Under the pieces are notes generated by a model. It was not told where the DNA came from, did no database searches, and was given only the letters and a program-made list of their open reading frames with translations. DNA of 64,000 nucleotides from an uncultured Caenibius sp. (GTDB lineage: Bacteria; Pseudomonadota; Alphaproteobacteria; Sphingomonadales; Sphingomonadaceae), in the NCBI GenBank assembly GCA_964468045.1, contig CAYXTO010000013.1:21392-85391 (forward strand), in the 5' to 3' direction. Below are positions 7,244-23,161 of this stretch, in pieces (within the stretch, counting starts at the first letter, position 1; every line of letters begins with the position of its first letter). The position numbers and the translations under genes are program-made.

Positions 7244-9109
7244 CTATAGATCCACCACCAGTTGCGCGCCCCTTGCTCGGGATACGCACAGGCACATATG
7301 CCTGTTTTCGGCTTTCTCCTCGTCCGAGAAATAGGCGTCGCGATGCTCGGCCTCGCCGGAAACGATATCCGCCGCGCACCGCCCGCAGGTGCCCTGCATG
7401 CAGGCGAAGGGCACCTCGATCCCCGCCATCGCCAGCGCATCGATGATGGTGCGGTCGGGCGGCACCTCCACCGATCTGCCGGAGCGGGCGAGTTGCAGGT
7501 TGAACGCCCGGTTCTCGCTGTCGTCGGCAACGGCGGCCGAGAAGGATTCCGTGCGGATCTGGGCCTCGCGCCAGCCTCTCGCGGCTGCTTCCCGGCGGAG
7601 CCAGTCCATGAAGGGCTGCGGACCGCAGAGATAAAGCAGATCTTCCGACCCATGGGTTCCCAGCACTGCGTCGAGATCGATGCCCGAACCGCCCTCGGGC
7701 CGATCCAGATGCACCGTGGCGCAGCGTGACATCGGCCCCTGGGCAAGGTCCTTGCGGAACGCGATTGCGCCTTCATCCCGCGAACAGACATGGAGGTGAT
7801 AAGGCTTGCCCAGCGCATGGAGGCGATGCGCCATCGCCAGCAGCGGCGTGATGCCGATGCCGCCCGCCACCAGCACGAAGCGGGGTGCGTTTTCATAAAG
7901 CACGAAGTTGTTGCGCGGACGGGAGACCGCGATCTCGTCGCCCACCTTCAGCGCATGCATGGCGCGCGAGCCGCCGCGCCCGCCGTCCTCCCGCTTGACC
8001 GCGATGCGATAGCGATTGGCGGCCTGGTCGTGGGACACCAGGGAATATTGGCGGACCAGCCCGTCCGGCAGGTGAACCTCGACATGCGCCCCGGCATCGC
8101 CTGATGGCAGGACGCGGCCGTCGGCCGGCTCAAGATCGAAGGAACGGATGGCATCGGCCTGATCCTCGATCCTGGCGACGCGCATGGCGATCGGCGCACG
8201 ATCCTCCTCGGTCGGGATATGGAATTCTCCCGGCCCTTCGAACCAGCCGCGATCGGGGATGCCCTGCCGGCGCAATACGCCATTGGCGAGCTCCCATACG
8301 CGCCTGTACTTGTACCAGGGCACATGCGGCACGAGGTGGTGAATCGTGTGGTCTTCCTGTCCGAACATCAGCCGCCGGAACGATGAATTGCCCCGCACGT
8401 AAACCGTCGACTGGAACGGTTCATGCTCCCAGGTCAGCCCGGTGGGATGCTGGATATGCGCGAAGGTATAGGCGACGATACCCAGGCCCACGCGCTGCGG
8501 CACCACATAGAGCAGCAGGAATTCCTTCCACCAGGGCGACATCAGGAAGGCGACATGGGAAATCACCACCGTCGCCAGCATGATATGGAACCAGAGGGCG
8601 ACCTTGCCCGACCAGTAATGCCGGCCATAGCGATAATACCAGCCGACCCAGTGCAGATCGGCGAACATCAGGTAGGATACGCCCAGCCATTTCGGCAGAT
8701 CGACGAAGCCGGTGTCGGGATCGCGCCCTTCCTCGCCGGTATAGCGATGATGGTCCATATGAATGGCGCGGAACACCGTCATGTTCACACCGGGCAGGAG
8801 CAGCTGGCCGGGGATCACGCCGAGAAGATCGTTCAGCACGCCATTGCTGGAAACCGCGCGGTGCGAGGCATCGTGCAGCGGCGTGAAGGCCAGATAGACC
8901 GCGCCGAGGTTGAACAGCATCGCGATCCACAAGGGAAGATGGCCGCTCATATAGCCCCATACCCCGAGGCCGAACGCGCCCAGCGCCAGCGCGACCAGCG
9001 CCGCCTGCTGGAACGCCAGAAGCGGCACGCGCATCACATCCGCATAGCGCGGGTCTTTCACAACTTGATTAAGTACATCCCTGACTGCGGGATTTCTGGT
9101 CATGGCCAT
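7244..9109 (-). CDS. Membrane fatty-acid-desaturase-family di-iron enzyme fused to a phthalate-dioxygenase-reductase-type (flavin/NAD/2Fe-2S) reductase
   Basis: The N-terminal ~300 aa has TM helices and three His boxes (HDASH, HMDHHRY, HTIHHLVPHVPWY). The C-terminal ~310 aa has RxYS-like flavin site RQYSLVS, NAD site LVAGGIGITPLL and a plant-type ferredoxin motif CMQGTCGRCAADIVSGEAEH. Confidence 0.85.
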   Translation of the reverse strand: MAMTRNPAVRDVLNQVVKDPRYADVMRVPLLAFQQAALVALALGAFGLGVWGYMSGHLPLWIAMLFNLGAVYLAFTPLHDASHRAVSSNGVLNDLLGVIPGQLLLPGVNMTVFRAIHMDHHRYTGEEGRDPDTGFVDLPKWLGVSYLMFADLHWVGWYYRYGRHYWSGKVALWFHIMLATVVISHVAFLMSPWWKEFLLLYVVPQRVGLGIVAYTFAHIQHPTGLTWEHEPFQSTVYVRGNSSFRRLMFGQEDHTIHHLVPHVPWYKYRRVWELANGVLRRQGIPDRGWFEGPGEFHIPTEEDRAPIAMRVARIEDQADAIRSFDLEPADGRVLPSGDAGAHVEVHLPDGLVRQYSLVSHDQAANRYRIAVKREDGGRGGSRAMHALKVGDEIAVSRPRNNFVLYENAPRFVLVAGGIGITPLLAMAHRLHALGKPYHLHVCSRDEGAIAFRKDLAQGPMSRCATVHLDRPEGGSGIDLDAVLGTHGSEDLLYLCGPQPFMDWLRREAAARGWREAQIRTESFSAAVADDSENRAFNLQLARSGRSVEVPPDRTIIDALAMAGIEVPFACMQGTCGRCAADIVSGEAEHRDAYFSDEEKAENRHMCLCVSRARGAQLVVDL

Positions 9110-9232: not shown

Positions 9233-10189
9233 TCAGGCAGGATAGGGTGGCATCCCCATGCGCGCCCGCGCGCGGGCATAATCCTCCACCAGCCATTCGA
9301 TGTAATCGCCCGCCGGCTCGGAGCGCTTGATCGCGCCGATGCCCTGCCCCGCGCTCCAGATATCCTTCCAGGCCTTGGCATTGTCGCCGCCGCCGTCGAT
9401 ATTGATCGCCTTGCCTTCGGGGCGAACGAGCTGGGCCGGATCGAGGCCATTCTCGAGGATGGAGGGGCGCAGGAAATTGGCGTTCACCCCGGTGAAGCAA
9501 TTGGTCACCACGATATCGTCCGCCACGCCGTCGACGATCATCTGCTTGAAGCCGGGCTGGGTATTCGCTTCCGCGCTCGCGAGGAAGGGCGAGCCGATAT
9601 AGGCGAAATCCGCGCCGAGCACTTCCGCCGCCAGCACGGCCTGCCCGTTGGCGATCGCGCCGGACAGCAGCACCAGGCCATCCCACCATTCGCGCAGTTC
9701 CTGCATCAGTGCGAAAGGCGAGCGATCCCCCGTGTGCCCGCCGGCGCCCGCGCCCACCGCAATGATCCCGTCCACCCCCATCTCCGCACATTTGCGGGCA
9801 TGGCGGTCCTTGATCACATCCTGGAACACCAGCGAGCCATTGGCCTGCAAGGCGCGCACCAGATCGGGATTGGCGGCCAGCGCCAGCACCACGATCGGCA
9901 CCTTATGCTTCAGCACGATCTCCAGATCCGCTTCCAGCCGCGAGTTGGACTTGTGCGCCACCAAATTGATCGCATAGGGCACATCGCCGACGCTGGCCGC
10001 AATCCGCGCGATATCCGCATCCAGTTGCTCGCTGGTGCGCGGGTTGAGCGCGGGCATCGAACCGATGATCCCGGCCCTGCACTGCTCGATCACCAGATCG
10101 GCGGTGGAGGCGATGAACATCGGCCCGGCCATGACCGGCAGCCGCAAATTGGCCTTCAGGCGGCGCGCAAGCTCGGCGCGATTGGACAT
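9233..10189 (-). CDS. FMN-dependent oxidoreductase, nitronate monooxygenase (NMO / 2-nitropropane dioxygenase) family
   Basis: Start moved to MSNRAEL (ATG 10187-10189), 1 nt after the upstream stop. TIM-barrel NMO pattern: LPVMAGPMFIAS, GVDGIIAVGAGAGGHTG, GADFAYIGSPFLAS. Confidence 0.85.
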   Translation of the reverse strand: MSNRAELARRLKANLRLPVMAGPMFIASTADLVIEQCRAGIIGSMPALNPRTSEQLDADIARIAASVGDVPYAINLVAHKSNSRLEADLEIVLKHKVPIVVLALAANPDLVRALQANGSLVFQDVIKDRHARKCAEMGVDGIIAVGAGAGGHTGDRSPFALMQELREWWDGLVLLSGAIANGQAVLAAEVLGADFAYIGSPFLASAEANTQPGFKQMIVDGVADDIVVTNCFTGVNANFLRPSILENGLDPAQLVRPEGKAINIDGGGDNAKAWKDIWSAGQGIGAIKRSEPAGDYIEWLVEDYARARARMGMPPYPA

Positions 10190-10190
10190 T

Positions 10191-11042
10191 CTAGTTACCC
10201 CTCCATTCGATGCGGCCGCCGTCGAGCACCTTGCGATCCCCCACAAAGCCCTGGAAATGCGCCTGCGTCCCGTCCTTCCATATCCGGAAAGTCAGGGTGT
10301 CGCCCGGCATCACCACGCCCGAAAAACGGCACGACAGATGGCCGACAGCCGACGGGTCCCGGCCCAGCGCGCGGGAAACGGCGACGCCCGCGATGCCGTA
10401 GCTCGCCAGCCCTTGCAGGATCGGCCGCTCGAACCCGGCCTTCTTGGCGAAATCGGGCTTGAGATGGAGCGGGTTCCAGTCCCCCGACAGGCGATAGATC
10501 AGCGCCGCGCGCGGCGACGTCTCGAAGCTGCCGGTCGCATCGGGATCACTCGCAAAATCGAAGCCCTGCTCGCGCGCGGGCGGCTCCCCGCCGAAGCCGC
10601 CATCGCCGCGCAGCAACAGCGTCTGGTGCAGGCGGCAATAGGAGCGGCCATCGGCGGCGTCGCGGATTTCCCGCTCCACCACCATGATCGCGCCCTTGCC
10701 TTCGCCGCGATCCGCCAGCGTATGGACACGGGCAGTGCCGACGATCTCGCCGGAGGCGGGCAGCGGATGCTCGAACCACGCCGCCTGCGCCATATGGACC
10801 AGCTTGGTGAAGTCGATCCCGAACTTGGGGTCGCGCATCCACATGCCGGGCGAGGCCAGCGTCACCGCATAGGTGGGCAGCACCTTGAGCGCGGTCTCGT
10901 CCATGAAGGCGAGATCGCCTTCATCGAGCGGATCGCGGGCAAGACCGACCCCCAATGCGTAGAGGATCGCGTCGCGCGCCTGCCATGCATGGCGCGTCTC
11001 GCCGAAATCATGGGCGAACAGCGCGGCGCTATCGATCGGCAT
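10191..11042 (-). CDS. MaoC-like double hot-dog (R)-specific enoyl-CoA hydratase (MFE-2 hydratase-2-like)
   Basis: 283 aa. C-terminal half has the hydratase-2 motif region YRLSGDWNPLHLKPDFAKKAGFERPILQGL. The N-terminal half is a degenerate hot-dog, as in peroxisomal MFE-2 / Hsd4B-type proteins. Confidence 0.85.
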   Translation of the reverse strand: MPIDSAALFAHDFGETRHAWQARDAILYALGVGLARDPLDEGDLAFMDETALKVLPTYAVTLASPGMWMRDPKFGIDFTKLVHMAQAAWFEHPLPASGEIVGTARVHTLADRGEGKGAIMVVEREIRDAADGRSYCRLHQTLLLRGDGGFGGEPPAREQGFDFASDPDATGSFETSPRAALIYRLSGDWNPLHLKPDFAKKAGFERPILQGLASYGIAGVAVSRALGRDPSAVGHLSCRFSGVVMPGDTLTFRIWKDGTQAHFQGFVGDRKVLDGGRIEWRGN

Positions 11043-11971: not shown

Positions 11972-13150
11972 TCAATAGCTCCTGGGGAGTTCCAGCACCT
12001 TTTCGGCGATGAAGCTCATGATCAGTTGTTCGGTGATGGGGGCGAGGCGGGTCAGCACGCTTTCGCGGAACAGCCGCTCGACGTGATATTCCTTGGCATA
12101 GCCGAAGCCGCCATGGGTCGCGACCGCCTGATAGGCCGCATCGAAGCAGGCCCGGGCCGCCAGGAACTTGGCCGCATTGGCTTCCGCCCCGCAGGGCAGG
12201 CCGCTGTCGTACAGGCGCGCGGCCTTCTCGACCATCAGCCAGGCGCTTTCCAGATACATCCACTTTTCCGCGAGCGGATGCTGGATGCCCTGGTTCTGGC
12301 CGATCTGCCGATCGAACACGACGCGTTCCTTGGCGTATTTCACTGCGCGGCGCAGCGCATCGCGGCCGATGCCGATCGCCTCGCAGGCGATCAGGATGCG
12401 TTCCGGGTTGAGGCTGTGCAGGATGTAGCCGAAGCCCTTGCCCTCCTCGCCGATCCGGTCCTCCTCGGGAATGAACAGGTCCTCGATGAAGATGGCGTTC
12501 GAATCCACCGCCTTGCGGCCCATCTTGGGGATCAGGTGGACGTCGATCTTGGAACGGTCGAGATCGGTGTAGAAGATCGTGATGCCATCGGTCGGCTTCT
12601 TGCAATCCTCGAACTTGGTGGTGCGCGTCAGCAGCATGATCTTGTTCGCCACCTGCGCGGTGGAGGTCCACACCTTCTGCCCGTTCACCCGATAGCCGCC
12701 CGGCACCTTCTCGGCGAAGGTCTTGATCCGGGTGGTGTTGAGCCCGGCATCCGGCTCGGTGAAGCCGAAGCACACCTGGTCCTCGCCAGCGACGAGCCGG
12801 GGCACCCAGCGCGCCTTCTGCTCGTCCGTGCCCTTGACCACGATGGGATGCGGGCCGAACAGATTGATGTGGATGGTGGACGCCGCCGCGAAGCCGCCGC
12901 CCGAAGCAGCGACCTCGTTCATCATGGTCATCGCTTCGGTCACACCGAGGCCGGACCCGCCATATTCCTCCGGCATGGTGATGCCCAGCCAGCCGCCCTC
13001 GGCCATGGCGCGGTGAAATTCGCGGGGGAACTTGCCGTCGTCGTCGCGGGCAAGCCAGTATTCGTCGTCGAAGGGTGCGCAGGCCGCGCGCACGCCTTCG
13101 CGAATGGCGTTCAGGTCTTCCTCCGTTGGCAGGGGCCGTTGCTCACTCAT
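11972..13150 (-). CDS. Acyl-CoA dehydrogenase
   Basis: 392 aa. ACAD blocks FGFTEPDAGLNTT, VNGQKVWTSTA, and C-terminal GGFGYAKEYHVERLFRES with the catalytic Glu context. Confidence 0.9.
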   Translation of the reverse strand: MSEQRPLPTEEDLNAIREGVRAACAPFDDEYWLARDDDGKFPREFHRAMAEGGWLGITMPEEYGGSGLGVTEAMTMMNEVAASGGGFAAASTIHINLFGPHPIVVKGTDEQKARWVPRLVAGEDQVCFGFTEPDAGLNTTRIKTFAEKVPGGYRVNGQKVWTSTAQVANKIMLLTRTTKFEDCKKPTDGITIFYTDLDRSKIDVHLIPKMGRKAVDSNAIFIEDLFIPEEDRIGEEGKGFGYILHSLNPERILIACEAIGIGRDALRRAVKYAKERVVFDRQIGQNQGIQHPLAEKWMYLESAWLMVEKAARLYDSGLPCGAEANAAKFLAARACFDAAYQAVATHGGFGYAKEYHVERLFRESVLTRLAPITEQLIMSFIAEKVLELPRSY

Positions 13151-13219: not shown

Positions 13220-14092
13220 TCATGCTTCTCCGGCGGCGGCCAGCGTCTTGCGGGCGGCGACCAGATGCGGGATGTCGACCATCTTGCCGTCGATCCCGAG
13301 CGTGCCCGCATCGGGATTGGCGGCAAAGGCATCCACCACGCGCCGGGCGAAAGCCACTTCCTCGTCCGAGGGGGAGAAGCAGCGATTGATCGTCTCGACC
13401 TGCGCGGGGTGGATCGCGACGCGGCCGGTAAACCCGTCGCGCCGGGCGCGGCGGCAATCGGCTTCCAGCCCTTCCGGGTCCTTGAAGTTGGCATAGAGCG
13501 TATCGAGCGGCGCCACTCCGGCGGCGGCGGCGGCGAACAGGCACTGCGCCCGCGCGACCTGATAGGGAAAGGTCCAGCTTCCGTCCGGTTCCTTGTTGTC
13601 GGTGATGCCGATCGCGGCGCCGAGATCCTCCGCCCCCCACGTCAAGCCGACCAGCCGCTCGCCGGCCTGCTGGTAGCTCCCGAGCGCGAACATGGCCGCC
13701 GGGGTTTCGGTGGAAACCACCGCGATCTTGACCGTGCCCTGCGCAATGCCCGAGCGCTGCTCCAGCGCGTCGAGATAATGGCCGATCCGCTCGATGTCGT
13801 GGGCGCCATTGGCCTTGGGCACCAGGATCCCGGCAAGGCCCGGGCGGACCACCGCGGAAAGATCCGCCAGGGTCAGCCCGGTATCGAGCGGGTTGATCCG
13901 CACGAACAGCGCCGGTTCGACCTCGCCCGCCTGGTCCAGCCAGCCCTGCACCATTTCGCGGGCGGTGTCCTTCATCGAAGGCGCGACCGAATCCTCCAGG
14001 TCCAGGATCAGCACGTCGGCGCCGCTCTCGCGGGCCTTGGCGAACTTCTTGTCCGAATCGCCCGGGACGAACAGAAGCGAGCGCAGCCTCAT
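13220..14092 (-). CDS. HpcH/HpaI-CitE family CoA-ester lyase (citryl/malyl/beta-hydroxyacyl-CoA lyase-like)
   Basis: Start moved to MRLRSLLFVPGDSDKKFAKA (ATG 14090-14092), which overlaps the upstream stop as ATGA. CitE-type pattern LFVPG, DVLILDLEDSV, GAEDLGAAIG. Confidence 0.85.
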   Translation of the reverse strand: MRLRSLLFVPGDSDKKFAKARESGADVLILDLEDSVAPSMKDTAREMVQGWLDQAGEVEPALFVRINPLDTGLTLADLSAVVRPGLAGILVPKANGAHDIERIGHYLDALEQRSGIAQGTVKIAVVSTETPAAMFALGSYQQAGERLVGLTWGAEDLGAAIGITDNKEPDGSWTFPYQVARAQCLFAAAAAGVAPLDTLYANFKDPEGLEADCRRARRDGFTGRVAIHPAQVETINRCFSPSDEEVAFARRVVDAFAANPDAGTLGIDGKMVDIPHLVAARKTLAAAGEA

Positions 14093-14544
14093 GCCTGCGG
14101 CTTCTTCATCATCAGCGCGTTGCGCACGGTGCGGCAGACCACCTCGTCGCGCTGGTTGTAGCCGACATGCTCGAAAGTGACGATGCCCTGGGTCGGGCGC
14201 GATTTGCTCTCGCGCAGCGCCAGAACCTTGGTTTCGCTGCGGATCGTATCGCCCGCGAACACCGGCTTGGGGAAGGTTGTCTCGGTCATCCCGAGATTGC
14301 CGATGGTCGTGCCGAAAGTGGTGTCCTGCACCGAAAGGCCGATGACGAGGCCCAGCGTGAACATCGAATTCATCAGCGGCTTGCCGAATTCGGTCGTCTC
14401 GCAATAGGCGTGGTCGATATGGATCGCCGCCGGATTATAGGTCAGCGACGAGTACAGCATATTGTCCATGTCGAGCACGGTCCGGCGGACTTCGTGCCGG
14501 AAAACCTGACCTTCGGTGAATTCATCGAAATACAAACCCGGCAT
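14089..14544 (-). CDS. MaoC-family (single hot-dog) enoyl-CoA hydratase/dehydratase
   Basis: Start at MPGLYFDEFTEGQVF (ATG 14542-14544) with GAGGGA upstream. The hot-dog fold pattern is comparable to itaconyl/mesaconyl-CoA hydratase-like proteins. Confidence 0.8.
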   Translation of the reverse strand: MPGLYFDEFTEGQVFRHEVRRTVLDMDNMLYSSLTYNPAAIHIDHAYCETTEFGKPLMNSMFTLGLVIGLSVQDTTFGTTIGNLGMTETTFPKPVFAGDTIRSETKVLALRESKSRPTQGIVTFEHVGYNQRDEVVCRTVRNALMMKKPQA

Positions 14545-14557
14545 CTGCCCTGCTCCC

Positions 14558-15760
14558 TCAATCCTTGCGGCCGAGAATCGAGACGGCCGCGACATTGTTG
14601 AACGGCGCGCCGCCCAGATTGTGAGTCAGACCGAACTTCACATCCTGCCGCTGCCGTTCGCCAGCGCGCCCTAGCAGTTGGTTGTAGACTTCGTAAGCCA
14701 TCCTGAGACCCGAAGCGCCGACCGGGTGCCCGAAGCACTTCAGCCCGCCGTCGAGCTGGCACGGGATCGCGCCGCCGGCATCATAGCGTCCATCGAGAAT
14801 ATCGGCGGGAGCGCGGCCGGGGTCGGACAGGCCGAGATCTTCCATGATCACCAGCTCGGTGATCGAGAAGCAGTCATGCACCTCGGTCAGATCGATATCC
14901 GCCTTGGGATCGGAAATCCCGGCTTCGGCATAGGCGCGCTGCGCCGCCGCCTGGGTATTGGGCACATGGGCGCCGTCCCATTCGGAGAACTGCATCTCGC
15001 TGCCGTTGCTGGCGGAAAGCTGGATCGCCTTGATCGTCACCGGGTTGTCGATGCCCAGTTCCTTCGCGATCTCGGGCGTGGTGAGAATGGCGGCGGCCGC
15101 ACCGTCGGACACGCCGCAGCAATCGAACAACCCCAGCGGATCGGCAATCAGCGGGGCATTGACGATAGTTTCCATATCGATCGCCTTGCGCAGATGCGCC
15201 TTGGGCGAATGGACCCCGTTCTGATGGCTCTTCCACGAAACATGCGCCATCGCGCGCTTGAGATCGCCCGCATCGACTCCGTGCCTGGCGGCATAGGCTC
15301 CGGCCAGTTGCGCGAAGGTGCCGGGCGCGGAACCGTAGGGCATCCACAGGTCGTTCTGCACGCCCTTGGTCTTGAGCGGCAGCCCGCCGTAGCCGGTGTC
15401 CTTGAGCTTCTCGACGCCGATGGCCAGCGCCACGTCGACCGCGCCGGACGCCACCGCATAGGCCGCGCCGCGCAGGGCCTCCGTGCCAGTCGCGCACATG
15501 TTCTCGACCCGCGTTACCGGAACCCGGTCCAGCCGCAGGGCATGCGCCGCCGGCAGCGAGCTGTTGCCGACATTGATGTCGTCCAGCGCATTGCCGACCC
15601 ACACCGCCTCGATCCGCTTCCGGTCGATCCCGGCGTCGGCCAGCGCCTCGGTGAAAGCCTCTACCATCAGCCCTTCAGCGGCGATGTCCCAGCGCTCGCC
15701 GAAACGGGTGCAGCCCATGCCGATGACGGCGACCTTGTCCCTGATTCCGCGAGCCATCAA
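14558..15760 (-). CDS. SCP-x / lipid-transfer-protein-type thiolase with a complete catalytic set
   Basis: Nucleophile loop VENMCATGTEAL, HDCFS, and GGLKCFGHPVGASG all present. The start overlaps the stop of the upstream gene (ATGA). Confidence 0.9.
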   Translation of the reverse strand: MMARGIRDKVAVIGMGCTRFGERWDIAAEGLMVEAFTEALADAGIDRKRIEAVWVGNALDDINVGNSSLPAAHALRLDRVPVTRVENMCATGTEALRGAAYAVASGAVDVALAIGVEKLKDTGYGGLPLKTKGVQNDLWMPYGSAPGTFAQLAGAYAARHGVDAGDLKRAMAHVSWKSHQNGVHSPKAHLRKAIDMETIVNAPLIADPLGLFDCCGVSDGAAAAILTTPEIAKELGIDNPVTIKAIQLSASNGSEMQFSEWDGAHVPNTQAAAQRAYAEAGISDPKADIDLTEVHDCFSITELVIMEDLGLSDPGRAPADILDGRYDAGGAIPCQLDGGLKCFGHPVGASGLRMAYEVYNQLLGRAGERQRQDVKFGLTHNLGGAPFNNVAAVSILGRKD

Positions 15761-17184
15761 TTCTCTCCGATCCGGGGCCGCTGCAGAGGCGCGGCCTTCC
15801 AGAAGTAAGTGCGGAAACCGAGCAGCTTGTTCTGCGACTTGATCCGCAGGCGCATCCGCACCCGGTCGCCCACCGCGAAGCCTGCCTCGGGCCGGTCGAC
15901 CATCTCCATCAGCACGCGCGCCCCATTGTCGAACTGCACCAGGCCGAAATCGAACGGCGGATCGGGATTGAAGTTCAGGCGATCGGCCGTGACCGACACG
16001 ATCCGCGCTTCCTCGTCGGCCAGCCGCACATCCTCTAGCGACTCCGGCCCGTCGGCGGCCGGATTGACCGGGATCGCGCTCTTGGGGAACTGCACATTGC
16101 CGTGGCTATCGCGCCCGCCGATGAAGCCGATCATGTCGCGGCCCACCCGCTCCAGCACCGTGGCCTGGGCCTTCAGCTCGAATTCGGAGCGCATCCCCCA
16201 GTCGAGATCGATCACCCCGGACAGGTTGAGGAAGCGGGTATAGTCCGCCAGCGCCTGTCCTTCCGCCAGCATCGCGGCGAGGTCCTTCGCGCCGGGCACT
16301 TCCTCCACCACCTCGAACAGCATCACGTCGATGCCGCTGCCGAAACCCGCGAGCAGCACCACATCGCCCGGCTGCGCCACCGCGAAGGCCAGCCCCAGTC
16401 CGAACAGCGGATGCGCCGCGCCGAGATCACCGGCCTCATCCGACAATTGCTGGCAATGGTTGACCGCGCCGATGCCCAGCTTGCGCGCGGCGGCAGCCCA
16501 GCAGCCGGAGACCGGCTCGGCGCAGGCAACCTGGGCAATGGCTGCCGCTTCGATGCCCGCCTTTTCGCATGCGCTGCGGATGGCGGGGATGAACAGCTCC
16601 GCCACCGAAACGTCGCGGACGAAGCGTTCCTCATAGGCGTAGGGGGTCGGGTGATCGAGCGTGGTGTAGCGGTCCACCAGATCGTGGCTCAACGCGGCAT
16701 GGCCGATCAGCCGCGCCGCGCCGCTCTCACCCGTCAGCACCGCCGCCGCGCCATCGCCATAGGCAAGCTGGGCCGCGCTGCCCGCCTGGGTCCTGCGCTT
16801 CTCCGCCGCCGCGACAAGCTGCGGGCCGCCCGCCAGCAGCGAGTCGAGCAAGGCGCTGGTCCCGGCCCGGCGCATATTCGCGGCATCCAGGGTGCGCACC
16901 TTGCGCGGCAGGGCCAGCGCATCGAGCATGATGCCGGCCTGCGAACGGTCCGTGAAATAGGCGGAGGTCGAAGCGAAACGCAGCACCTCCACATCCGCCC
17001 CGGCAAGGTCCCGGGATGCCTCCACTGCCATGGTCAGCGGATCTTCATCCCAGCCCGCGACCGCGCGCGCGCCCTTGCGCGGCATCGGCAGGCCCGACCA
17101 CGCCAGCTGCCTGGCGGCCGCCTTGCGATCCAGCCGCAACAAGGGCAGATAGCCGCCCATTCCGGAAATCCATGCCTTCTGCAT
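15757..17184 (-). CDS. HMG-CoA-synthase/KAS III-like thiolase-fold domain fused to a C-terminal DUF35-type OB-fold domain
   Basis: N-terminus carries the WDEDPLTMAVEA motif of the HMGCS family, but the expected nucleophile loop reads DAANMRRAGTSAL with no Cys. The C-terminal ~130 aa (GNVQFPKSAIPV...GLVQFDNGARVLMEMVD...VGDRVRMRLRI) matches the DUF35 OB-fold pattern without zinc-ribbon cysteines. Confidence 0.8.
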   Translation of the reverse strand: MQKAWISGMGGYLPLLRLDRKAAARQLAWSGLPMPRKGARAVAGWDEDPLTMAVEASRDLAGADVEVLRFASTSAYFTDRSQAGIMLDALALPRKVRTLDAANMRRAGTSALLDSLLAGGPQLVAAAEKRRTQAGSAAQLAYGDGAAAVLTGESGAARLIGHAALSHDLVDRYTTLDHPTPYAYEERFVRDVSVAELFIPAIRSACEKAGIEAAAIAQVACAEPVSGCWAAAARKLGIGAVNHCQQLSDEAGDLGAAHPLFGLGLAFAVAQPGDVVLLAGFGSGIDVMLFEVVEEVPGAKDLAAMLAEGQALADYTRFLNLSGVIDLDWGMRSEFELKAQATVLERVGRDMIGFIGGRDSHGNVQFPKSAIPVNPAADGPESLEDVRLADEEARIVSVTADRLNFNPDPPFDFGLVQFDNGARVLMEMVDRPEAGFAVGDRVRMRLRIKSQNKLLGFRTYFWKAAPLQRPRIGEN

Positions 17185-17239: not shown

Positions 17240-17297
17240 TTGACAGGTGCGGGTCATTTCGTAAACAAGTTGACTATCGGTTGGCAAGAGCTAATTG
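17240..17297 (+). promoter_or_regulatory. Candidate tandem promoters plus an imperfect palindrome with an AAC-NN-GTT core
   Basis: TTGACA at 17240-17245. TTGACT at 17270-17275, then 16 nt, then TAATTG at 17292-17297. The palindrome GTAAACAAGTTGAC at 17261-17274 (10 of 14 symmetric positions) overlaps the second -35, 48 nt upstream of the SDR start. Confidence 0.3.
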
Positions 17298-17321
17298 AGC
17301 CGATGCCATCAGGAGAGGCCA

Positions 17322-18212
17322 ATGGAAATTTTTCGCGACGATGTGCTGTCCGGCAAGAATATTCTGGTGACCGGCGGCGGCGGCGGCCTTGGCAAGGAAA
17401 TCGCGCAGGCGCTATCCGCAAAGCATGCCACGGTCCATATTTCCGGGCGCCGGCTCGGAATGCTGGAAGAAACCGCCGCGCGGATCTCGGCGCAGACCGG
17501 ACACCCCGTTCACGCCCATGCCTGCGACGTGCGCGACGCCGATGCGATGGACGCGCTGATCGAGGAAATCTGGCAGGACAAGCCGCTGACCGGGCTGATC
17601 AACAACGCGGCGGCCAACTTCATCTCGCCGACCAAGGATCTCAGTGCGCGGGGCTTCCGCGCCATCACCTCCACGGTGATGGACGGCAGCTTCCACGCCA
17701 CCCTGTCTTGCGGCAAGCGCTGGATTCGCGATGGCCTGCCCGGTTCGGTCGTCTCCAATCTCGTGACCTGGGTATGGACCGGATCCGCCTTCGTGGTGCC
17801 TTCGGCCATGGCCAAGACCGCGCTGCACGCCATGACCATGTCGCTGGCGGCGGAGTGGGGCCCCTACGGCATCCGCCTGAACGCGACCGCTCCCGGCCCC
17901 TTCCCGACGCCCGAAGCCTGGGAAAAGCTGAACCCGCTGCCCGATACGCAAAGCTCCGCGACCAATTGCGACACGATCCCGATGCGGCGCTACGGCAACA
18001 TGCCGGAGCTGACCAACCTCATCACTTTCCTGATGTCGGACGGCTGCGATTTCCTGACCGGGCAGACGATTGCGGTGGACGGGGCGCAGCATCTCGCGGC
18101 CCCCAGCACATTCGCCGACCTCACCAACCTCACCGATGAGCAGTGGCAGGCCGCCCGCGCGGCGATCGAAGCTTCCACCGCCAAATCCAAAGCCGCTCAG
18201 AACCAGGGCTAA
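17322..18212 (+). CDS. SDR-family reductase (2,4-dienoyl-CoA reductase / trans-2-enoyl-CoA reductase-like)
   Basis: Start at MEIFRDDVLSGK with AGGAGAGG at 17311-17318. VTGGGGGLGKE, NNAAANF and the SAMAKTAL active-site region resemble the DECR-type SDR subgroup. Confidence 0.8.
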   Translation: MEIFRDDVLSGKNILVTGGGGGLGKEIAQALSAKHATVHISGRRLGMLEETAARISAQTGHPVHAHACDVRDADAMDALIEEIWQDKPLTGLINNAAANFISPTKDLSARGFRAITSTVMDGSFHATLSCGKRWIRDGLPGSVVSNLVTWVWTGSAFVVPSAMAKTALHAMTMSLAAEWGPYGIRLNATAPGPFPTPEAWEKLNPLPDTQSSATNCDTIPMRRYGNMPELTNLITFLMSDGCDFLTGQTIAVDGAQHLAAPSTFADLTNLTDEQWQAARAAIEASTAKSKAAQNQG

Positions 18213-18218
18213 TCTTCC

Positions 18219-19382
18219 ATGATCGAACGCACGCTTTTCACCCCCGAGCACGAAATGTGGCGCGATACCGCCCGCAAATTCGTGGAGAAGGAAATCGTTC
18301 CCTTCCACGACCAGTGGGAGAAGGACGGCATCGTCCCGCGCGACCTCTGGCTCAAGGCGGGCGAGGCGGGCCTGCTGTGCTGCACCGTGCCGGAAGAATA
18401 TGGCGGGATCGGCGCCGACTATCTCTATGATGTCGTGGTGTTCGAGGAATTGTGGCGGGCCGGCACCAGCGGACCGGGCTTCCTGATCCATACCGACCTC
18501 GTCGCGACCTATATCAAGTCCTTCGGCACCGAGGAGCAGAAGCAGCAATGGCTGCCGAAGATGGTCACCGGCGAAGCCATCGGCTCGCTGGGCATGACCG
18601 AGCCCCATGCCGGCTCCGACCTCAAGGCGATCAAGACCAAGGCAGTACGCGACGGCGACGATTACGTCATCAACGGGCAGAAGGTGTTCATTTCCAACGG
18701 CCAGATGTGCGACGTGCTGGTGCTCGCCACCAAGACCGACAGCGAGGCGGGCGCCAAGGGCGTGACCCTGTTCCTGGTCGACACCAGCCTGCCCGGCTTC
18801 AAGCGCGGCCAGAATCTCGACAAGCTGGGGATGAAAGCGCAGGATACGTCGGAACTGTTCTTCGAGGATCTGCGCGTTCCGGCCAGCGCCATGCTGGGCG
18901 GCGAGGGCGAAGGCTTCAAGCTGATGATGACCAAGCTGTCGCAGGAACGGCTGGCCCAGGCCATCCGCTCCGCCACGGTGACCGAGACGATGATCGAATG
19001 GACGGTGGATTACACCTCGGAACGCAAGGCCTTCGGACAGACCATCGCCGATTTCCAGAACACCCAGTTCGTGCTGGCCGACCTCAAGGCCCGCTCGGTG
19101 ATGGCCCGGGTCTTCACCGACAAGTGCATCGAGCTGTTCATGCAGGACAAGCTGGACGCGGTGGATGCGGCGATGCTCAAGATGGTCACCTCGGAGCTGC
19201 ACTGCGAAGCGGCGGACAAGTGCCTCCAGCTGTTCGGCGGCTGGGGCTATATGTGGGAATATCCGATCTGCCGCGCCTATGCGGATTCCCGCATCGTCAA
19301 GATCGCGGGCGGCTCGATCGAGATCATGAAGACCATCATCGCGCGTGAAATGTTCAAGGGCAGGATCGGCAGGAAACAATGA
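18219..19382 (+). CDS. Acyl-CoA dehydrogenase
   Basis: 387 aa. GMTEPHAGSDL, INGQKVFISNG, and C-terminal GGWGYMWEYPICRAYADSRIVKIAGGSIEIMKTIIARE with the catalytic Glu. Confidence 0.9.
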   Translation: MIERTLFTPEHEMWRDTARKFVEKEIVPFHDQWEKDGIVPRDLWLKAGEAGLLCCTVPEEYGGIGADYLYDVVVFEELWRAGTSGPGFLIHTDLVATYIKSFGTEEQKQQWLPKMVTGEAIGSLGMTEPHAGSDLKAIKTKAVRDGDDYVINGQKVFISNGQMCDVLVLATKTDSEAGAKGVTLFLVDTSLPGFKRGQNLDKLGMKAQDTSELFFEDLRVPASAMLGGEGEGFKLMMTKLSQERLAQAIRSATVTETMIEWTVDYTSERKAFGQTIADFQNTQFVLADLKARSVMARVFTDKCIELFMQDKLDAVDAAMLKMVTSELHCEAADKCLQLFGGWGYMWEYPICRAYADSRIVKIAGGSIEIMKTIIAREMFKGRIGRKQ

Positions 19383-19879: not shown

Positions 19880-19910
19880 TCGCACAACCCAATCGTCAAT
19901 GGAGGAATTT

Positions 19911-20669
19911 ATGAAGGGATTGGCCGGAAAGGTGGCGATCGTCACCGGTGGCGGACAAGGTATCGGCAGGGCGCTGGCGTTGCGCCTGGCCGAGGAAGGC
20001 TGCAAGGTCGCAATCTTCGATCTCAGCATCGAAGCCGGCGAGGAGACCGCGAAGCTGGCCGGTGACGCAACCGTGAAGACCTACAAGGTCGATGTGAGCG
20101 ATTTCGACGCGGTTCAGGCTGCGGTAGAGGCCGTCGAGAACGATCTCGGTCCCGTCTGGGCGCTCGTCAACAATGCCGGCTGGGACAAGGTCCAGCCCTT
20201 CCTCACCACCACGCCCGATCTCTGGGAAAAGATCATCGCGATCAATCTCAAGGGCAATCTCAACACGCACTTCGCGGTCGCCAGCCGGATGGCCAGCCGT
20301 GGCGGCGGGCGCATCATCAATATCGCCTCGGATGCGGCGCGCGTCGGCACCAGCAATGAAGCCGTCTATTCGGCCTGCAAGGGCGGCCTGATCGCCTTCA
20401 CCAAGTCGATTGCCCGCGAGCTGGCCCGCAAGGGCGTGCTCGCCAATTGCGTCTGCCCGGGGCCGACCAACACCCCGATGATGGAAGCGACGCTGGGCCA
20501 GGGTCCGGAGGCCGAGAAGTGGAAGGACGCGATGGTCCGCGGCGTTCCGGTCAAGCGCATCGGCGAACCGGAAGACTATGCCGGCATGGTCGCGCTGCTC
20601 GCGTCGGACGATGGCGCCTACATCACCGGCCAGGCAATCTCGATTTCCGGCGGCCTGACGATGGTCTGA
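19911..20669 (+). CDS. SDR-family dehydrogenase, BadH-like (2-hydroxycycloalkane-carboxyl-CoA dehydrogenase-like)
   Basis: ATG at 19911 follows GGAGGA (19901-19906). An alternative ATG lies at 19899. VTGGGQGIG, NNAGWDKVQPFLTTTPDLWEKIIAINLKG, YSACKGG. The WDK..PF..T block is what I associate with BadH-type enzymes. Confidence 0.8.
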   Translation: MKGLAGKVAIVTGGGQGIGRALALRLAEEGCKVAIFDLSIEAGEETAKLAGDATVKTYKVDVSDFDAVQAAVEAVENDLGPVWALVNNAGWDKVQPFLTTTPDLWEKIIAINLKGNLNTHFAVASRMASRGGGRIINIASDAARVGTSNEAVYSACKGGLIAFTKSIARELARKGVLANCVCPGPTNTPMMEATLGQGPEAEKWKDAMVRGVPVKRIGEPEDYAGMVALLASDDGAYITGQAISISGGLTMV

Positions 20670-20675
20670 CCGCAG

Positions 20676-21104
20676 ATGGGTTTCGTGCAATCTCCTCCCG
20701 GCGGCTTCGAATTGCTGACTCCCAATAACCCCTATTGGGAGCAATTCGGCCCGGTCTATGCGGACCGGCCCAGGAAGCTGCTGGGTTTCAGGATTGCGGA
20801 GCACCACTGCAACCCGGTCAAATCGCTACACGGTGGGGCACTGGCCACTTTCGCCGACATGCAGCTCATGGCGCTGCCTGAGTATGACGGCAAGCTGGAA
20901 ACACACGCCCCCACCATCTCACTATCGCTGGACTATATCGGTCCGGCTCATCTCGGCGAGTGGGTCGAGGCGGAAGTGGTGGTCGATCGGACCACCCGGA
21001 GGCTTCTGTTCATTCGCTCGATGATCACCGCCGAGGGCCGCACCATCGCCCGGTCGAATGCCCTCTACCGCAATCACGACAAGACAGGATACCCCCTGAC
21101 ATGA
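20676..21104 (+). CDS. PaaI/YdiI-type hot-dog thioesterase
   Basis: 142 aa. HCNPVKSLHGGALATFADM is typical of PaaI-family thioesterases. Paralog of 62705-63223. Confidence 0.8.
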   Translation: MGFVQSPPGGFELLTPNNPYWEQFGPVYADRPRKLLGFRIAEHHCNPVKSLHGGALATFADMQLMALPEYDGKLETHAPTISLSLDYIGPAHLGEWVEAEVVVDRTTRRLLFIRSMITAEGRTIARSNALYRNHDKTGYPLT

Positions 21105-21889
21105 CCCAAGCATTCGAAGACATCATCTACGAAATTCGCGGCCGTGCGGCCTGGATCATCATCAACCGGCCCAAGCTGTACAACGCCTTCCGCGCCCAAA
21201 CGCTGGAAGAAATGATTTCCGCGTTCAAGCTGGCGGCAGACGACAAGGGCGTGTCCTGCGTCGTGCTCACCGGCGCGGGCGACAAGGCATTCTGCACCGG
21301 CGGCGACCAGAGCGCCCATGAAGGCCAGTATGACGGGCGCGGCATCGTCGGCCTGCCGATCGACGAATTGCAGTCGATCATCCGCGACATCCCCAAGCCG
21401 GTCATCGCCCGCATCAATGGCTTCGCGATCGGCGGCGGCAATGTCTTCGCCACGCTGTGCGACCTCTCGATCATGGCCGACACCGCCAAGCTCGGCCAGG
21501 TCGGCCCGAAGGTCGGCTCGATCGACGCCGGCTGGGGCACCGCTCTGCTGGCCCGCCACGTGGGCGACAAGAAGGCCCGCGAGATCTGGTATCTCAACCT
21601 GCAGTATACCGCGCAGGAAGCGCTGGCGATGGGCCTGGTCAACAGGGTCGTCCCCGCCGCCGAGCTGGACGACGCGGTGAACGAATGGACCGACATCATC
21701 GGCCAGCGTTCGCCCACCGCCCTTGCTCTCGCCAAGCGCAGCTTCAACGCCGACAGCGACAATATCCGCGGTATCTCGATGCTCGCGCTGAACGCGGTGA
21801 AGCTGTTCTACGATACCGCTGAATCGAAGGAAGGGGTCAACGCCTTCAACGAAAAGCGCACTCCGGATTTCCACAAATATGTCAAGTAA
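21101..21889 (+). CDS. MenB/BadI-subfamily crotonase (candidate beta-ketoacyl-CoA ring hydrolase / Dieckmann-type enzyme)
   Basis: ATGA overlap with the thioesterase gene. FCTGGDQ, GQVGPKVGSIDAGWGT, AREIWYLNLQYTAQEALAMGLVNRVVP, and C-terminal EGVNAFNEKRTPDF match the pattern shared by naphthoate synthase MenB and 2-ketocyclohexanecarboxyl-CoA hydrolase BadI. Confidence 0.85.
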   Translation: MTQAFEDIIYEIRGRAAWIIINRPKLYNAFRAQTLEEMISAFKLAADDKGVSCVVLTGAGDKAFCTGGDQSAHEGQYDGRGIVGLPIDELQSIIRDIPKPVIARINGFAIGGGNVFATLCDLSIMADTAKLGQVGPKVGSIDAGWGTALLARHVGDKKAREIWYLNLQYTAQEALAMGLVNRVVPAAELDDAVNEWTDIIGQRSPTALALAKRSFNADSDNIRGISMLALNAVKLFYDTAESKEGVNAFNEKRTPDFHKYVK

Positions 21890-21904
21890 GCTACGGGCTG
21901 CCGC

Positions 21905-23149: not shown

Positions 23150-23161
23150 AGGGAAGAGGAA

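What the first reader, a model, noticed from the sequence alone, without database searches (positions are those of the whole stretch)
14558..17184. Canonical SCP-x thiolase coupled to a Cys-less HMG-CoA-synthase-like domain fused to DUF35: a bacterial one-gene version of the archaeal scaffold?
Seen: the first gene of the 10-kb operon (15757-17184) has an HMGCS/KAS III-like N-domain. It keeps the EDxxTM-type block (WDEDPLTMAVEA), but its expected nucleophile loop reads DAANMRRAGTSAL with no Cys. The domain is fused to a DUF35-type OB-fold that lacks zinc-ribbon cysteines. The gene overlaps (ATGA) a thiolase that retains all catalytic residues (NMCATG, HDCFS, CFGHP).

Established: in archaea, thiolase, HMG-CoA synthase and a DUF35 protein form a channeling complex with DUF35 as the scaffold. 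In steroid degraders the DUF35 domain of ChsH2 docks the thiolase-fold aldolase Ltp2.

Inference: the fusion is probably a non-catalytic or repurposed partner. It would tether the thiolase, perhaps to drive an unfavourable thiolysis/condensation or to bind a bulky acyl-CoA. I am not aware of this exact fusion being characterised.
Basis: partly seen in the sequence, partly recalled or inferred. Interest (0 to 1): 0.6.

Follow-up and report, generated by a model that had tools for sequence, protein, structure and literature searches.

The report
Dead HMG-CoA-synthase/DUF35 partner of a thiolase
Two coupled genes encode a working thiolase and a partner made of a catalytically dead HMG-CoA-synthase-like domain fused to a zinc-less DUF35 domain. 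This gene architecture was characterised biochemically in Pseudomonas fluorescens in 2026, and here it sits in a conserved operon for breaking down CoA-linked fatty-acid-like compounds.

Summary
ORF 15757-17184 (-) encodes 475 aa: an HMGS/KAS-III-fold domain fused to a DUF35 OB-fold. All four HMGS catalytic residues (E-C-H-N) are replaced (T73, R105, A222, D253), and the zinc-ribbon cysteines are gone. The next gene (14558-15757, -) is an SCP2/archaeal-type thiolase with Cys88, H294-DCF and GH344P intact. The stop/start overlap is TGATG, not ATGA.

The non-catalytic-partner reading is supported, but the fusion is not uncharacterised. Nat Commun 2026 (PMC12960953) purified a fused HMGS-DUF35/ACAT complex from P. 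fluorescens. It has the same motif pattern, including His294, and it only thiolyses acetoacetyl-CoA.

- The family is large: 214 50%-identity clusters and at least 593 species genomes.
- None of 95 diverse members has the catalytic Glu, Cys or His.
- An intact thiolase lies downstream in 77 of 80 loci.
- Recurrent neighbours are MFE-2-type dehydrogenase, hydratase 2, acyl-CoA dehydrogenase and CoA ligase genes.
- Natural fusions to an MFE-2-type SDR and to SCP2 domains exist.
- The zinc-less ribbon marks the clade that carries a conserved ~14-kb catabolic cluster.

The pair is most likely the thiolase of an (R)-specific beta-oxidation route for a branched or alicyclic acyl-CoA; the substrate is unknown. 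Verdict: new member of a known kind, modest interest.

The parts
15757..17184 (-). Gene for the 475-aa fusion protein (HMGS-like domain + DUF35); first gene of the minus-strand operon
   Evidence: ORF and translation; Pfam and NCBIfam; AF2 model with pLDDT 96 and pTM 0.95
16165..17184 (-). HMGS/KAS-III-fold domain (about residues 1-340). Tetrad equivalents are T73, R105, A222, D253. It also carries E139Q and R174T at positions that are E or R in 86 of 95 relatives
   Evidence: Alignments to PhlA and archaeal HMGS; column counts; Foldseek top hits 9skh_A, 9vbt_B, 6esq_I/J, 5mg5_A
15775..16122 (-). DUF35 domain (about residues 355-470): a zinc-less ribbon followed by an OB-fold with invariant R447, Y460, W462, K463
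   Evidence: Pfam PF01796; family profile matches DUF35 chain 6esq_E (5e-24) and PhlB 5m3k_B (4.5e-16); Cys counts; invariant columns
14558..15757 (-). SCP2/archaeal-type thiolase (399 aa from the ATG) with Cys88, H294-D-C296-F and G-H344-P; its start overlaps the fusion gene's stop (TGATG)
   Evidence: PDB matches 7yvy_A 3e-57, 6esq_A 7e-53, SCP2-thiolase 6hsj 1e-48, BbsB 7pxp_C 2e-44
14089..14544 (-). Small MaoC-type (mesaconyl-CoA-hydratase-like) hydratase
   Evidence: Pfam; conserved at +2.1 kb in the 23 orthologous loci
13220..14092 (-). CitE/HpcH-type CoA-ester lyase
   Evidence: Pfam; synteny
11972..13150 (-). Acyl-CoA dehydrogenase
   Evidence: Pfam; synteny at 79-92% identity
11047..11961 (-). 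MFE-2-type (3R)-hydroxyacyl-CoA dehydrogenase (SDR)
   Evidence: Pfam; PDB 2et6 7e-100, 1gz6, 1zbq; 47% identical to the SDR domain naturally fused to an HMGS-DUF35 protein, P0164
10191..11042 (-). MFE-2-type hydratase 2 (MaoC + hydratase-2 N-domain)
   Evidence: Pfam
9233..10246 (-). NMO-family flavoprotein ORF; the true start is probably near 10194
   Evidence: Pfam; the S. macrogoltabida orthologue is 315 aa and overlaps the hydratase gene by 4 nt
7244..9109 (-). Membrane di-iron desaturase/hydroxylase fused to an FNR/2Fe-2S reductase. It is the last gene on this strand and is not conserved with the cluster elsewhere
   Evidence: Pfam; no match in any of the 80 related loci
17295..19382 (+). 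Divergent SDR and acyl-CoA dehydrogenase genes. They begin the conserved opposite-strand half of the cluster, which continues with BadH-like SDR, PaaI thioesterase, BadI-like crotonase, CoA-transferase and BKACE up to about 24.1 kb
   Evidence: Pfam; synteny; RefSeq annotation of the S. macrogoltabida plasmid

Best explanation
The 475-aa protein is a non-catalytic structural subunit. It combines an HMG-CoA-synthase-fold domain that has lost its whole catalytic tetrad with a DUF35 domain that has lost its zinc site. It most likely assembles with the thiolase encoded immediately downstream, as PhlA+PhlB do with PhlC and as HMGS+DUF35 do with the archaeal thiolase. In those complexes the partners keep the thiolase soluble or competent and contribute to a shared CoA/substrate chamber.

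The thiolase is the only catalyst of the pair. It uses Cys88 as nucleophile, the HDCF loop and His344 to cleave a 3-oxoacyl-CoA with CoA. In this organism it would serve as the last step of an (R)-specific, MFE-2-like beta-oxidation module (acyl-CoA dehydrogenase, hydratase 2, (3R)-hydroxyacyl-CoA dehydrogenase). That module belongs to a conserved ~14-kb catabolic cluster, probably for a methyl-branched and/or alicyclic carboxylate.

Shown here: domain identity, residue losses, thiolase motifs, adjacency, synteny and natural fusions. Inferred: complex formation, direction of the reaction and the substrate class.
For: 1) Tetrad loss: alignments to PhlA and archaeal HMGS give T73/R105/A222/D253. 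Among 95 diverse family members none has Glu, Cys or His at the three key positions.
2) Homology to complex subunits: the family profile matches PhlA-type 9skh_A at 5e-71, PhlA 5m3k_A at 1e-67, archaeal HMGS 6esq_I at 3e-62, DUF35 6esq_E at 5e-24 and PhlB at 4.5e-16. Foldseek on the AF2 model (pLDDT 96) ranks the same chains first.
3) Thiolase intact: C88, H294DCF and GH344P are present. The closest solved chains are DUF35-partnered or SCP2 thiolases. Partner thiolases keep HDCF in 75 of 77 loci and CFGHP in 71 of 77.
4) Obligate pairing: a thiolase lies downstream on the same strand in 77 of 80 loci, and in 74 of 77 it starts within about 120 nt. Identity to the window's proteins co-varies between the two genes (r = 0.97). 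The thiolase is more conserved than the fusion protein (69% vs 46% mean identity).
5) Published biochemistry: a fused HMGS-DUF35/ACAT complex from P. fluorescens lacks E-C-H-N and keeps Cys, HDxF (His294) and GHx. It makes no HMG-CoA or acetoacetyl-CoA but thiolyses acetoacetyl-CoA, and H294Y nearly abolishes this (PMC12960953). PhlA and PhlB are non-catalytic but required (PMC6392133).
6) Catabolic context: the operon encodes an MFE-2-type SDR (2et6, 7e-100), hydratase 2, an acyl-CoA dehydrogenase and a MaoC+CitE pair. The cluster is syntenic in 23 loci from Novosphingobium, Sphingopyxis, Bradyrhizobium, Mesorhizobium and others. Distant loci recurrently carry SDR, ACAD, hydratase 2 and CoA-ligase genes.
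7) Rosetta-stone fusions: HMGS-DUF35 is naturally fused to an SDR that is 47% identical to the operon's MFE-2-type SDR, and to SCP2 domains.
8) No bona fide HMGS scores above the family cut-off in the window's own genome.
Against: - No experiment or multimer model on these two proteins was possible, so complex formation is inferred from homology and gene coupling.
- The substrate is unknown, and acetoacetyl-CoA thiolysis in the published relative may be a surrogate activity.
- Several residues stay invariant or nearly so in the dead domain (D46, E47, D48, R106, E185, R187). Most are shared with true HMGS and PhlA, so they may be structural or CoA-binding, but a residual function is not excluded.
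- This protein has also lost E139 and R174, which most relatives keep. Its contribution to a CoA site may therefore be weaker than in its relatives.
Confidence: 0.75

Rival explanations
1. The HMGS-like domain is not a mere scaffold. It has acquired a new catalytic or substrate-delivery function using family-conserved residues, for example binding and presenting the bulky acyl chain or catalysing an auxiliary step.
For: Strong conservation inside the dead domain: D46, E47 and G252 are invariant, D48 is 94/95, R106 is 84/95, E185/R187 are 82/95 and 89/95, and H258 is 55/95. The paper reports that an interfacial chamber is retained in PpATase and SmaATase.
Against: Most of these residues are also present in true HMGS and in non-catalytic PhlA, which fits structural or CoA-binding roles. 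The position of the former nucleophile is hypervariable (L, Q, R, A, M...). The window's protein has itself lost E139 and R174. The domain evolves faster than the thiolase.
Confidence: 0.1
2. The pair works biosynthetically, condensing acyl-CoAs (reverse thiolase), as in the archaeal mevalonate or fatty-acid-synthesis complexes.
For: Thiolases are reversible, and archaeal thiolase/DUF35 pairs act in synthesis (10.1101/2024.07.05.601840; PMC12960953).
Against: A dead HMGS removes the exergonic pull. The P. fluorescens relative formed no acetoacetyl-CoA from acetyl-CoA. The operon contains acyl-CoA dehydrogenases, a CoA-ester lyase and hydratases, and related loci add a TonB-dependent receptor, CoA ligases and an alkane monooxygenase.
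Confidence: 0.05
3. It is a PhlACB/MucABC-like CoA-independent C-acyltransferase acting on a small-molecule acceptor.
For: The closest solved relatives of the fusion protein are PhlA-type subunits.
Against: PhlC and MucB have lost the HDxF motif. The thiolase here, and 75 of 77 partners, keep HDCF. PhlC is only a weak match (1.7e-16) compared with the archaeal thiolase (7e-53). No PKS or NRPS gene was found among the genes annotated between 7.2 and 27.7 kb.
Confidence: 0.03
4. It is an evolutionary leftover, a complex that lost its primary function and is not tied to any pathway (the reading offered for the P. fluorescens complex).
For: The authors' interpretation of 1,001 loci without PKS/NRPS neighbours. 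The distribution is patchy: 5 of 400 sampled genomes of the phylum.
Against: The 14-kb synteny is conserved across several alphaproteobacterial families, with 79-92% identical neighbours. Beta-oxidation neighbours recur in distant loci. Natural fusions to an MFE-2-type SDR and SCP2 exist. Thiolase motifs are strictly retained.
Confidence: 0.05

Closest known systems
PfACAT/HMGS-DUF35 complex of Pseudomonas fluorescens (Nat Commun 2026;17:2196, PMC12960953)
   Same: A single polypeptide with HMGS-like then DUF35 domains. The HMGS tetrad E-C-H-N is absent. The adjacent thiolase keeps the catalytic Cys, HDxF with His at position 294, and GHx. There are no PKS/NRPS neighbours.
   Different: The sequence relationship could not be measured because no accession was available. 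The window's protein has a zinc-less ribbon and two further substitutions (E139Q, R174T). It sits in a defined, conserved catabolic cluster, whereas the paper regarded its locus as not recruited to a pathway.
PhlACB (PpATase, PDB 5M3K/5MG5), CsATase (9SKH) and MucABC (9VBO/9VBT) C-acyltransferases
   Same: A dead HMGS-like subunit (PhlA: Glu to Cys83, Cys to Gly115), a DUF35 subunit and an SCP2-type thiolase-fold catalytic subunit. These are the best sequence and fold matches of the fusion protein.
   Different: There the three subunits are separate proteins. The thiolase-fold subunit has lost HDxF and performs Friedel-Crafts acyl transfer in antibiotic biosynthesis. Here the HMGS-like and DUF35 parts are fused and the thiolase is canonical.
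[quoted passage not shown]
   Same: All three modules are homologous: profile E 3e-62 (HMGS), 5e-24 (DUF35), and 7e-53 (thiolase, single-sequence search).
   Different: The archaeal HMGS is active (E82, C114, H238, N270) and pulls the condensation for mevalonate synthesis. Its DUF35 is a separate zinc-ribbon protein. Here the HMGS is dead and fused, zinc-less, and in a catabolic context.
BbsAB benzoylsuccinyl-CoA thiolase (PDB 7PXP)
   Same: A catabolic SCP2-type thiolase with HDxF that needs a DUF35 subunit. BbsB matches the window's thiolase at 2e-44.
   Different: It has no HMGS-like component, its DUF35 binds zinc, and it works in anaerobic toluene degradation.
Peroxisomal SCPx thiolase + MFE-2 (D-bifunctional protein)
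   Same: The operon combines an SCP2-type thiolase with an MFE-2-type (3R)-dehydrogenase and hydratase 2. Relatives of the fusion protein carry SCP2 domains.
   Different: In eukaryotes these are multidomain enzymes without an HMGS-like/DUF35 partner.

Membership tests
Bacterial fused HMGS-DUF35 / ACAT thiolase complex (PfACAT/HMGS-DUF35 type) | HMGS-like and DUF35 domains in one polypeptide | tested here: met
   Pfam and NCBIfam. The family profile aligns positions 2-339 to HMGS/PhlA chains and 347-480 to DUF35/PhlB chains. The AF2 model is confident.
Bacterial fused HMGS-DUF35 / ACAT thiolase complex (PfACAT/HMGS-DUF35 type) | [quoted passage not shown] | tested here: met
   The equivalents are T73, R105, A222 and D253.
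Bacterial fused HMGS-DUF35 / ACAT thiolase complex (PfACAT/HMGS-DUF35 type) | Adjacent thiolase retains the catalytic Cys, HDxF and GHx | tested here: met
   C88, H294DCF and GH344P. His294 has the same number as the residue mutated in PfACAT.
Bacterial fused HMGS-DUF35 / ACAT thiolase complex (PfACAT/HMGS-DUF35 type) | Forms a complex and thiolyses 3-oxoacyl-CoA without making HMG-CoA | not testable with these tools
   This needs protein work. Only homology and gene coupling are available.
Bacterial fused HMGS-DUF35 / ACAT thiolase complex (PfACAT/HMGS-DUF35 type) | Sequence homology to the characterised P. fluorescens proteins | not tested
   The text held gives no accession or sequence and no supplements are held. 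Cluster look-ups returned no Pseudomonas names.
Archaeal thiolase/HMGS/DUF35 mevalonate complex | Catalytically active HMGS (Glu, Cys, His, Asn) | tested here: not met
   All four residues are replaced. The NCBIfam HMGS score is 83.8 bits against a cut-off of 244.
Archaeal thiolase/HMGS/DUF35 mevalonate complex | DUF35 with a four-Cys zinc ribbon | tested here: not met
   There is no Cys in the ribbon segment. The same holds in all 23 orthologous loci.
PhlACB/MucABC C-acyltransferases | Thiolase-fold subunit has lost the HDxF motif, and the genes lie in a PKS or NRPS cluster | tested here: not met
   HDCF is present. The neighbours are beta-oxidation-type genes.
ChsH2(DUF35)/Ltp2 and Shy/Sal steroid side-chain aldolases | Thiolase-fold partner lacks the Cys nucleophile and acts as a retro-aldolase; DUF35 is fused to a MaoC hydratase | tested here: not met
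   Cys88 and all thiolase motifs are present. DUF35 is fused to an HMGS-like domain, not to MaoC.
SCP2/archaeal-type thiolases (NCBIfam PRK06157) | Whole-protein score above the curated cut-off, with the acid/base Cys in the HDCF loop | tested here: met
   652.5 bits against a cut-off of 403. H294-D-C296-F is present.

The most novel reading that the evidence does not exclude
The dead-HMGS/DUF35 protein is the organising hub of a bacterial counterpart of the peroxisomal MFE-2/SCPx system. On this reading it docks the thiolase and also the (3R)-hydroxyacyl-CoA dehydrogenase (and, in relatives, SCP2 lipid-binding domains). Bulky branched or alicyclic 3-oxoacyl-CoAs would then be channelled through a shared CoA chamber. 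This would give the roughly 1,000 'orphan' bacterial HMGS/ACAT/DUF35 loci a defined physiological role in beta-oxidation of recalcitrant lipids.
Probability: 0.25. Interest if true: 0.55.

Novelty: new member of a known kind. Interest (0 to 1): 0.3.

Why it matters
The architecture is no longer new. What matters is physiology. The only paper on this fused complex left about 1,000 such bacterial loci without a pathway and called them evolutionary intermediates. The conserved synteny found here (MFE-2-type dehydrogenase, hydratase 2, acyl-CoA dehydrogenases, MaoC+CitE lyase, BadH/BadI-like ring-opening genes, CoA ligases) points to a working role. So do the natural fusions to an MFE-2-type SDR and to SCP2. 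That role would be the thiolase step in degrading branched or alicyclic acyl-CoAs in sludge and soil bacteria. The cluster is present in cultured strains (Novosphingobium resinovorum, Sphingopyxis macrogoltabida, Bradyrhizobium spp.), so this can be tested directly. The zinc-less clade also shows that the DUF35 ribbon can do without its metal.

Tried and rejected
Two independent residue-level alignments agree, and no conserved Cys exists anywhere in the protein.
- A second HMGS-like hit in the window's own genome (L003) is a FabH-sized 321-aa ORF, not a fusion.
- A link to the unknown bile-salt side-chain route of Sphingobium sp. Chol11 is rejected. The Chol11 papers describe other genes and note that thiolase homologues are missing.
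- A triple fusion with the thiolase, which would have allowed a single-chain model of the complex, was not found among longer proteins. P0240 (723 aa) joins the domain to unrelated ATP-grasp and molybdopterin domains and was not pursued.
- The search for related loci with the 95-sequence alignment failed because no stretch was conserved enough. A 12-sequence alignment worked.
- The Vögeli et al. 2018 paper (PMC5879682) is not held, so conservation of CoA-site residues could not be checked against it.
- The listing of cluster members gave no Pseudomonas names.
- Promoter and terminator scans gave no more sites than shuffled sequence.
- No RNA holder is listed among the sequencing runs, so expression was not examined and read laying was not used.
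- The greedy ORF calling is contaminated by long antisense ORFs in these GC-rich loci. Only clusters confirmed by Pfam were used.
Full report
**What is there**

Two ORFs lie on the minus strand. The first, 15757-17184, encodes 475 aa. The second is a thiolase ORF ending at 14558. Its ATG at 15757 shares one base with the upstream TGA, since the junction reads GAATTGATGGCT. A TTG three bases further upstream would give a 4-nt overlap. The pair is therefore translationally coupled, but not by ATGA.

Domain searches on the 475-aa protein:
- Pfam places a DUF35 OB-fold (PF01796) at residues 389-446, above threshold, plus a sub-threshold KAS-III C-terminal match.
- NCBIfam's archaeal HMG-CoA synthase model matches residues 5-322 at E 1e-23. 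The score is 84 bits against a cut-off of 244, so this is a homologue and not an HMGS.

The thiolase passes the curated PRK06157 model (652 bits against 403). It carries NMC88ATG, H294DCF and CFGH344P.

**Is the HMGS-like domain really dead?**

Single-sequence phmmer against PDB chains finds PhlA-type proteins first. A profile of 95 diverse relatives matches the following chains:
- PhlA-type 9skh_A at 5e-71
- PhlA 5m3k_A at 1e-67
- archaeal HMGS 6esq_I at 3e-62
- MucA 9vbo_A at 3e-46

The C-terminal part of the profile matches the archaeal DUF35 chain 6esq_E (5e-24) and PhlB (4.5e-16).

I counted along the printed alignments. PhlA Cys83 and Gly115 are the positions the PhlACB paper gives as the Glu and Cys equivalents (PMC6392133). 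They align with T73 and R105. Archaeal HMGS E82, C114, H238 and N270 are the tetrad mutated in PMC12960953. They align with T73, R105, A222 and D253.

In the 95-member alignment:
- The Glu position is Thr in 80 and never Glu.
- The Cys position is hypervariable and never Cys.
- The His position is never His.
- The Asn position is Asn in 18 and Asp in 33.

The protein's four cysteines are at non-conserved positions. An AF2 model built on this alignment is very confident (pLDDT 96, pTM 0.95). Foldseek ranks PhlA-type, MucA and complexed archaeal HMGS chains first (E about 1e-21, target TM about 0.8).

**The DUF35 part**

Of the 95 relatives, 81 have all four ribbon cysteines (CxxC...CxxC). The window's protein has none. 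In 80 related genomic loci the zinc-less state is found in all 23 loci of the orthologous clade (53-73% identity). It also occurs separately in a second small group, while most of the remaining loci keep four Cys. The OB-fold keeps the family's invariant R447, Y460, W462 and K463. The window's protein additionally carries Q139 and T174 where 86 of 95 relatives have Glu and Arg.

**The thiolase**

Its closest solved relatives are:
- an acetyl-CoA acetyltransferase, 7yvy_A (3e-57)
- the thiolase of the archaeal complex, 6esq_A (7e-53)
- SCP2-type thiolases (1e-48)
- BbsB (2e-44)
- PhlC, far weaker (1.7e-16)

Established knowledge, not tested here: in SCP2-type thiolases the acid/base cysteine lies in the HDCF loop.

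**Already in print**

PMC12960953 (Nat Commun, January 2026) mined 1,030 bacterial loci with co-localised HMGS, ACAT and DUF35 genes. Of these, 1,001 lacked adjacent secondary-metabolism machinery. [quoted passage not shown] Its HMGS domain lacks E-C-H-N, and its ACAT keeps Cys, HDxF and GHx. It makes neither HMG-CoA nor acetoacetyl-CoA but thiolyses acetoacetyl-CoA, and H294Y nearly abolishes this activity.

The window's thiolase has its HDxF histidine at the same number, 294. I could not obtain the P. fluorescens sequences, so membership rests on the defining features rather than on measured identity.

**Spread and pairing**

- An exhaustive search of 50%-identity representatives gives 214 clusters at E <= 1e-30, nearly all 465-495 aa and aligned end to end.
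They are mostly Alpha-, Beta- and Gammaproteobacteria, with some Acidobacteriota and other groups.
- Plasmid records add distant Rhodococcus copies.
- In an even sample of the phylum only 5 of 400 other genomes carried it. Only three candidates per genome were scored in that search.
- The window's own genome has one copy and no true HMGS.

In 77 of 80 loci a thiolase lies downstream on the same strand; the other three loci had no scored thiolase match, two of them on contigs that end just after the gene. In 74 of those 77 it starts within about 120 nt of the fusion gene's stop. HDCF is present in 75 of 77 and CFGHP in 71 of 77. Identities of the two genes to the window's proteins correlate at r = 0.97. 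The thiolase is more conserved than the fusion protein (mean 69% vs 46%). This is the pattern expected of a catalytic subunit with a faster-evolving structural partner.

**Context and likely role**

The operon continues downstream with these genes:
- a small MaoC hydratase
- a CitE-type CoA-ester lyase
- an acyl-CoA dehydrogenase
- an SDR whose best solved relatives are MFE-2 (3R)-hydroxyacyl-CoA dehydrogenases (2et6, 7e-100)
- an MFE-2-type hydratase 2
- an NMO-family flavoprotein
- a desaturase-reductase fusion

The divergent genes encode an SDR, an acyl-CoA dehydrogenase, a BadH-like SDR, a PaaI thioesterase, a BadI-like crotonase, a CoA-transferase and a BKACE.

This roughly 14-kb arrangement, apart from the desaturase, is syntenic in 23 loci. 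They come from Novosphingobium, Sphingopyxis, Bradyrhizobium, Mesorhizobium, Kumtagia, Roseiarcus and others. On the S. macrogoltabida plasmid it lies next to an alkane 1-monooxygenase, an aldehyde dehydrogenase, CoA ligases and a TonB-dependent receptor.

Distant loci (36-42% identity) keep the pair. They often add the MFE-2-type SDR, hydratase 2, an acyl-CoA dehydrogenase or a CoA ligase.

Natural longer proteins join HMGS-DUF35 to other domains:
- an SDR plus an SCP2 domain (about 910 aa)
- an SDR alone (800 aa)
- two SCP2 domains (722 aa)

That SDR domain is 47% identical (E 3e-64) to the operon's MFE-2-type SDR and unrelated to the other SDR of the cluster.

Together these results argue for a working thiolase step in an (R)-specific beta-oxidation route for a lipophilic, probably branched or alicyclic, acyl-CoA. 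They argue against the "not yet recruited" reading offered in the paper. The substrate itself remains unknown, and this part is inference.

**Mechanism**

Shown: one active site (the thiolase) and a partner without HMGS chemistry. Inferred from the solved homologous complexes (PMC6392133; PMC12960953): the HMGS-like domain dimerises, and the DUF35 part bridges it to the thiolase dimer. On this view the partner is needed for solubility or competence and lines a common CoA/substrate chamber. Because the second, exergonic condensation is gone, there is no basis for "driving an unfavourable reaction". Thiolysis is favourable on its own.

**Verdict**

The architecture is known, so this is a new member of a known kind, specifically a zinc-less, further degenerated clade. 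The useful addition is a testable physiological context.

Noticed in passing
proteins P0164, P0272, P0273 (~910 aa), P0162 (800 aa), P0159 (722 aa); not in the window: Natural fusions join the dead-HMGS/DUF35 protein to an MFE-2-type SDR and/or SCP2 sterol-carrier domains. This amounts to a bacterial mosaic of the peroxisomal MFE-2/SCPx domain set.
   Followed up: partly
loci L031, L048, L059, L062, L066, L077, L084: A second group of fusion proteins keeps only one ribbon cysteine (GGRCTxTGxxQFP...ISVNPN). This suggests an independent loss of the zinc site.
   Followed up: no
window 13220-14544 (-) with 11972-13150 (-): A MaoC hydratase, a CitE-type lyase and an acyl-CoA dehydrogenase sit directly after the thiolase and are conserved with it.
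   Followed up: partly
window 7244-9109 (-): The membrane di-iron desaturase/hydroxylase fused to its FNR/2Fe-2S reductase ends the operon here. It has no counterpart in any of the 80 related loci, so it is a lineage-specific addition.
   Followed up: partly
window 19899-24091 (+): The BadH-like SDR, PaaI thioesterase, BadI-like crotonase, acetyl-CoA hydrolase/transferase-family CoA-transferase and BKACE are conserved as a block with the fusion-thiolase operon in all full-length orthologous loci. This hints at an alicyclic ring-opening route feeding the beta-oxidation module.
   Followed up: partly
L085 (Sphingopyxis macrogoltabida plasmid NZ_CP013345.1, 283-313 kb): The whole cluster is plasmid-borne in a cultured strain. 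It lies next to an alkane 1-monooxygenase, an aldehyde dehydrogenase, three AMP-binding CoA ligases and a TonB-dependent receptor, which makes this a convenient system for genetics.
   Followed up: no
window 14558-17184: Near-identical DNA occurs in contigs of bioreactor, activated-sludge and wastewater metagenomes from several studies. No RNA run is listed.
   Followed up: no
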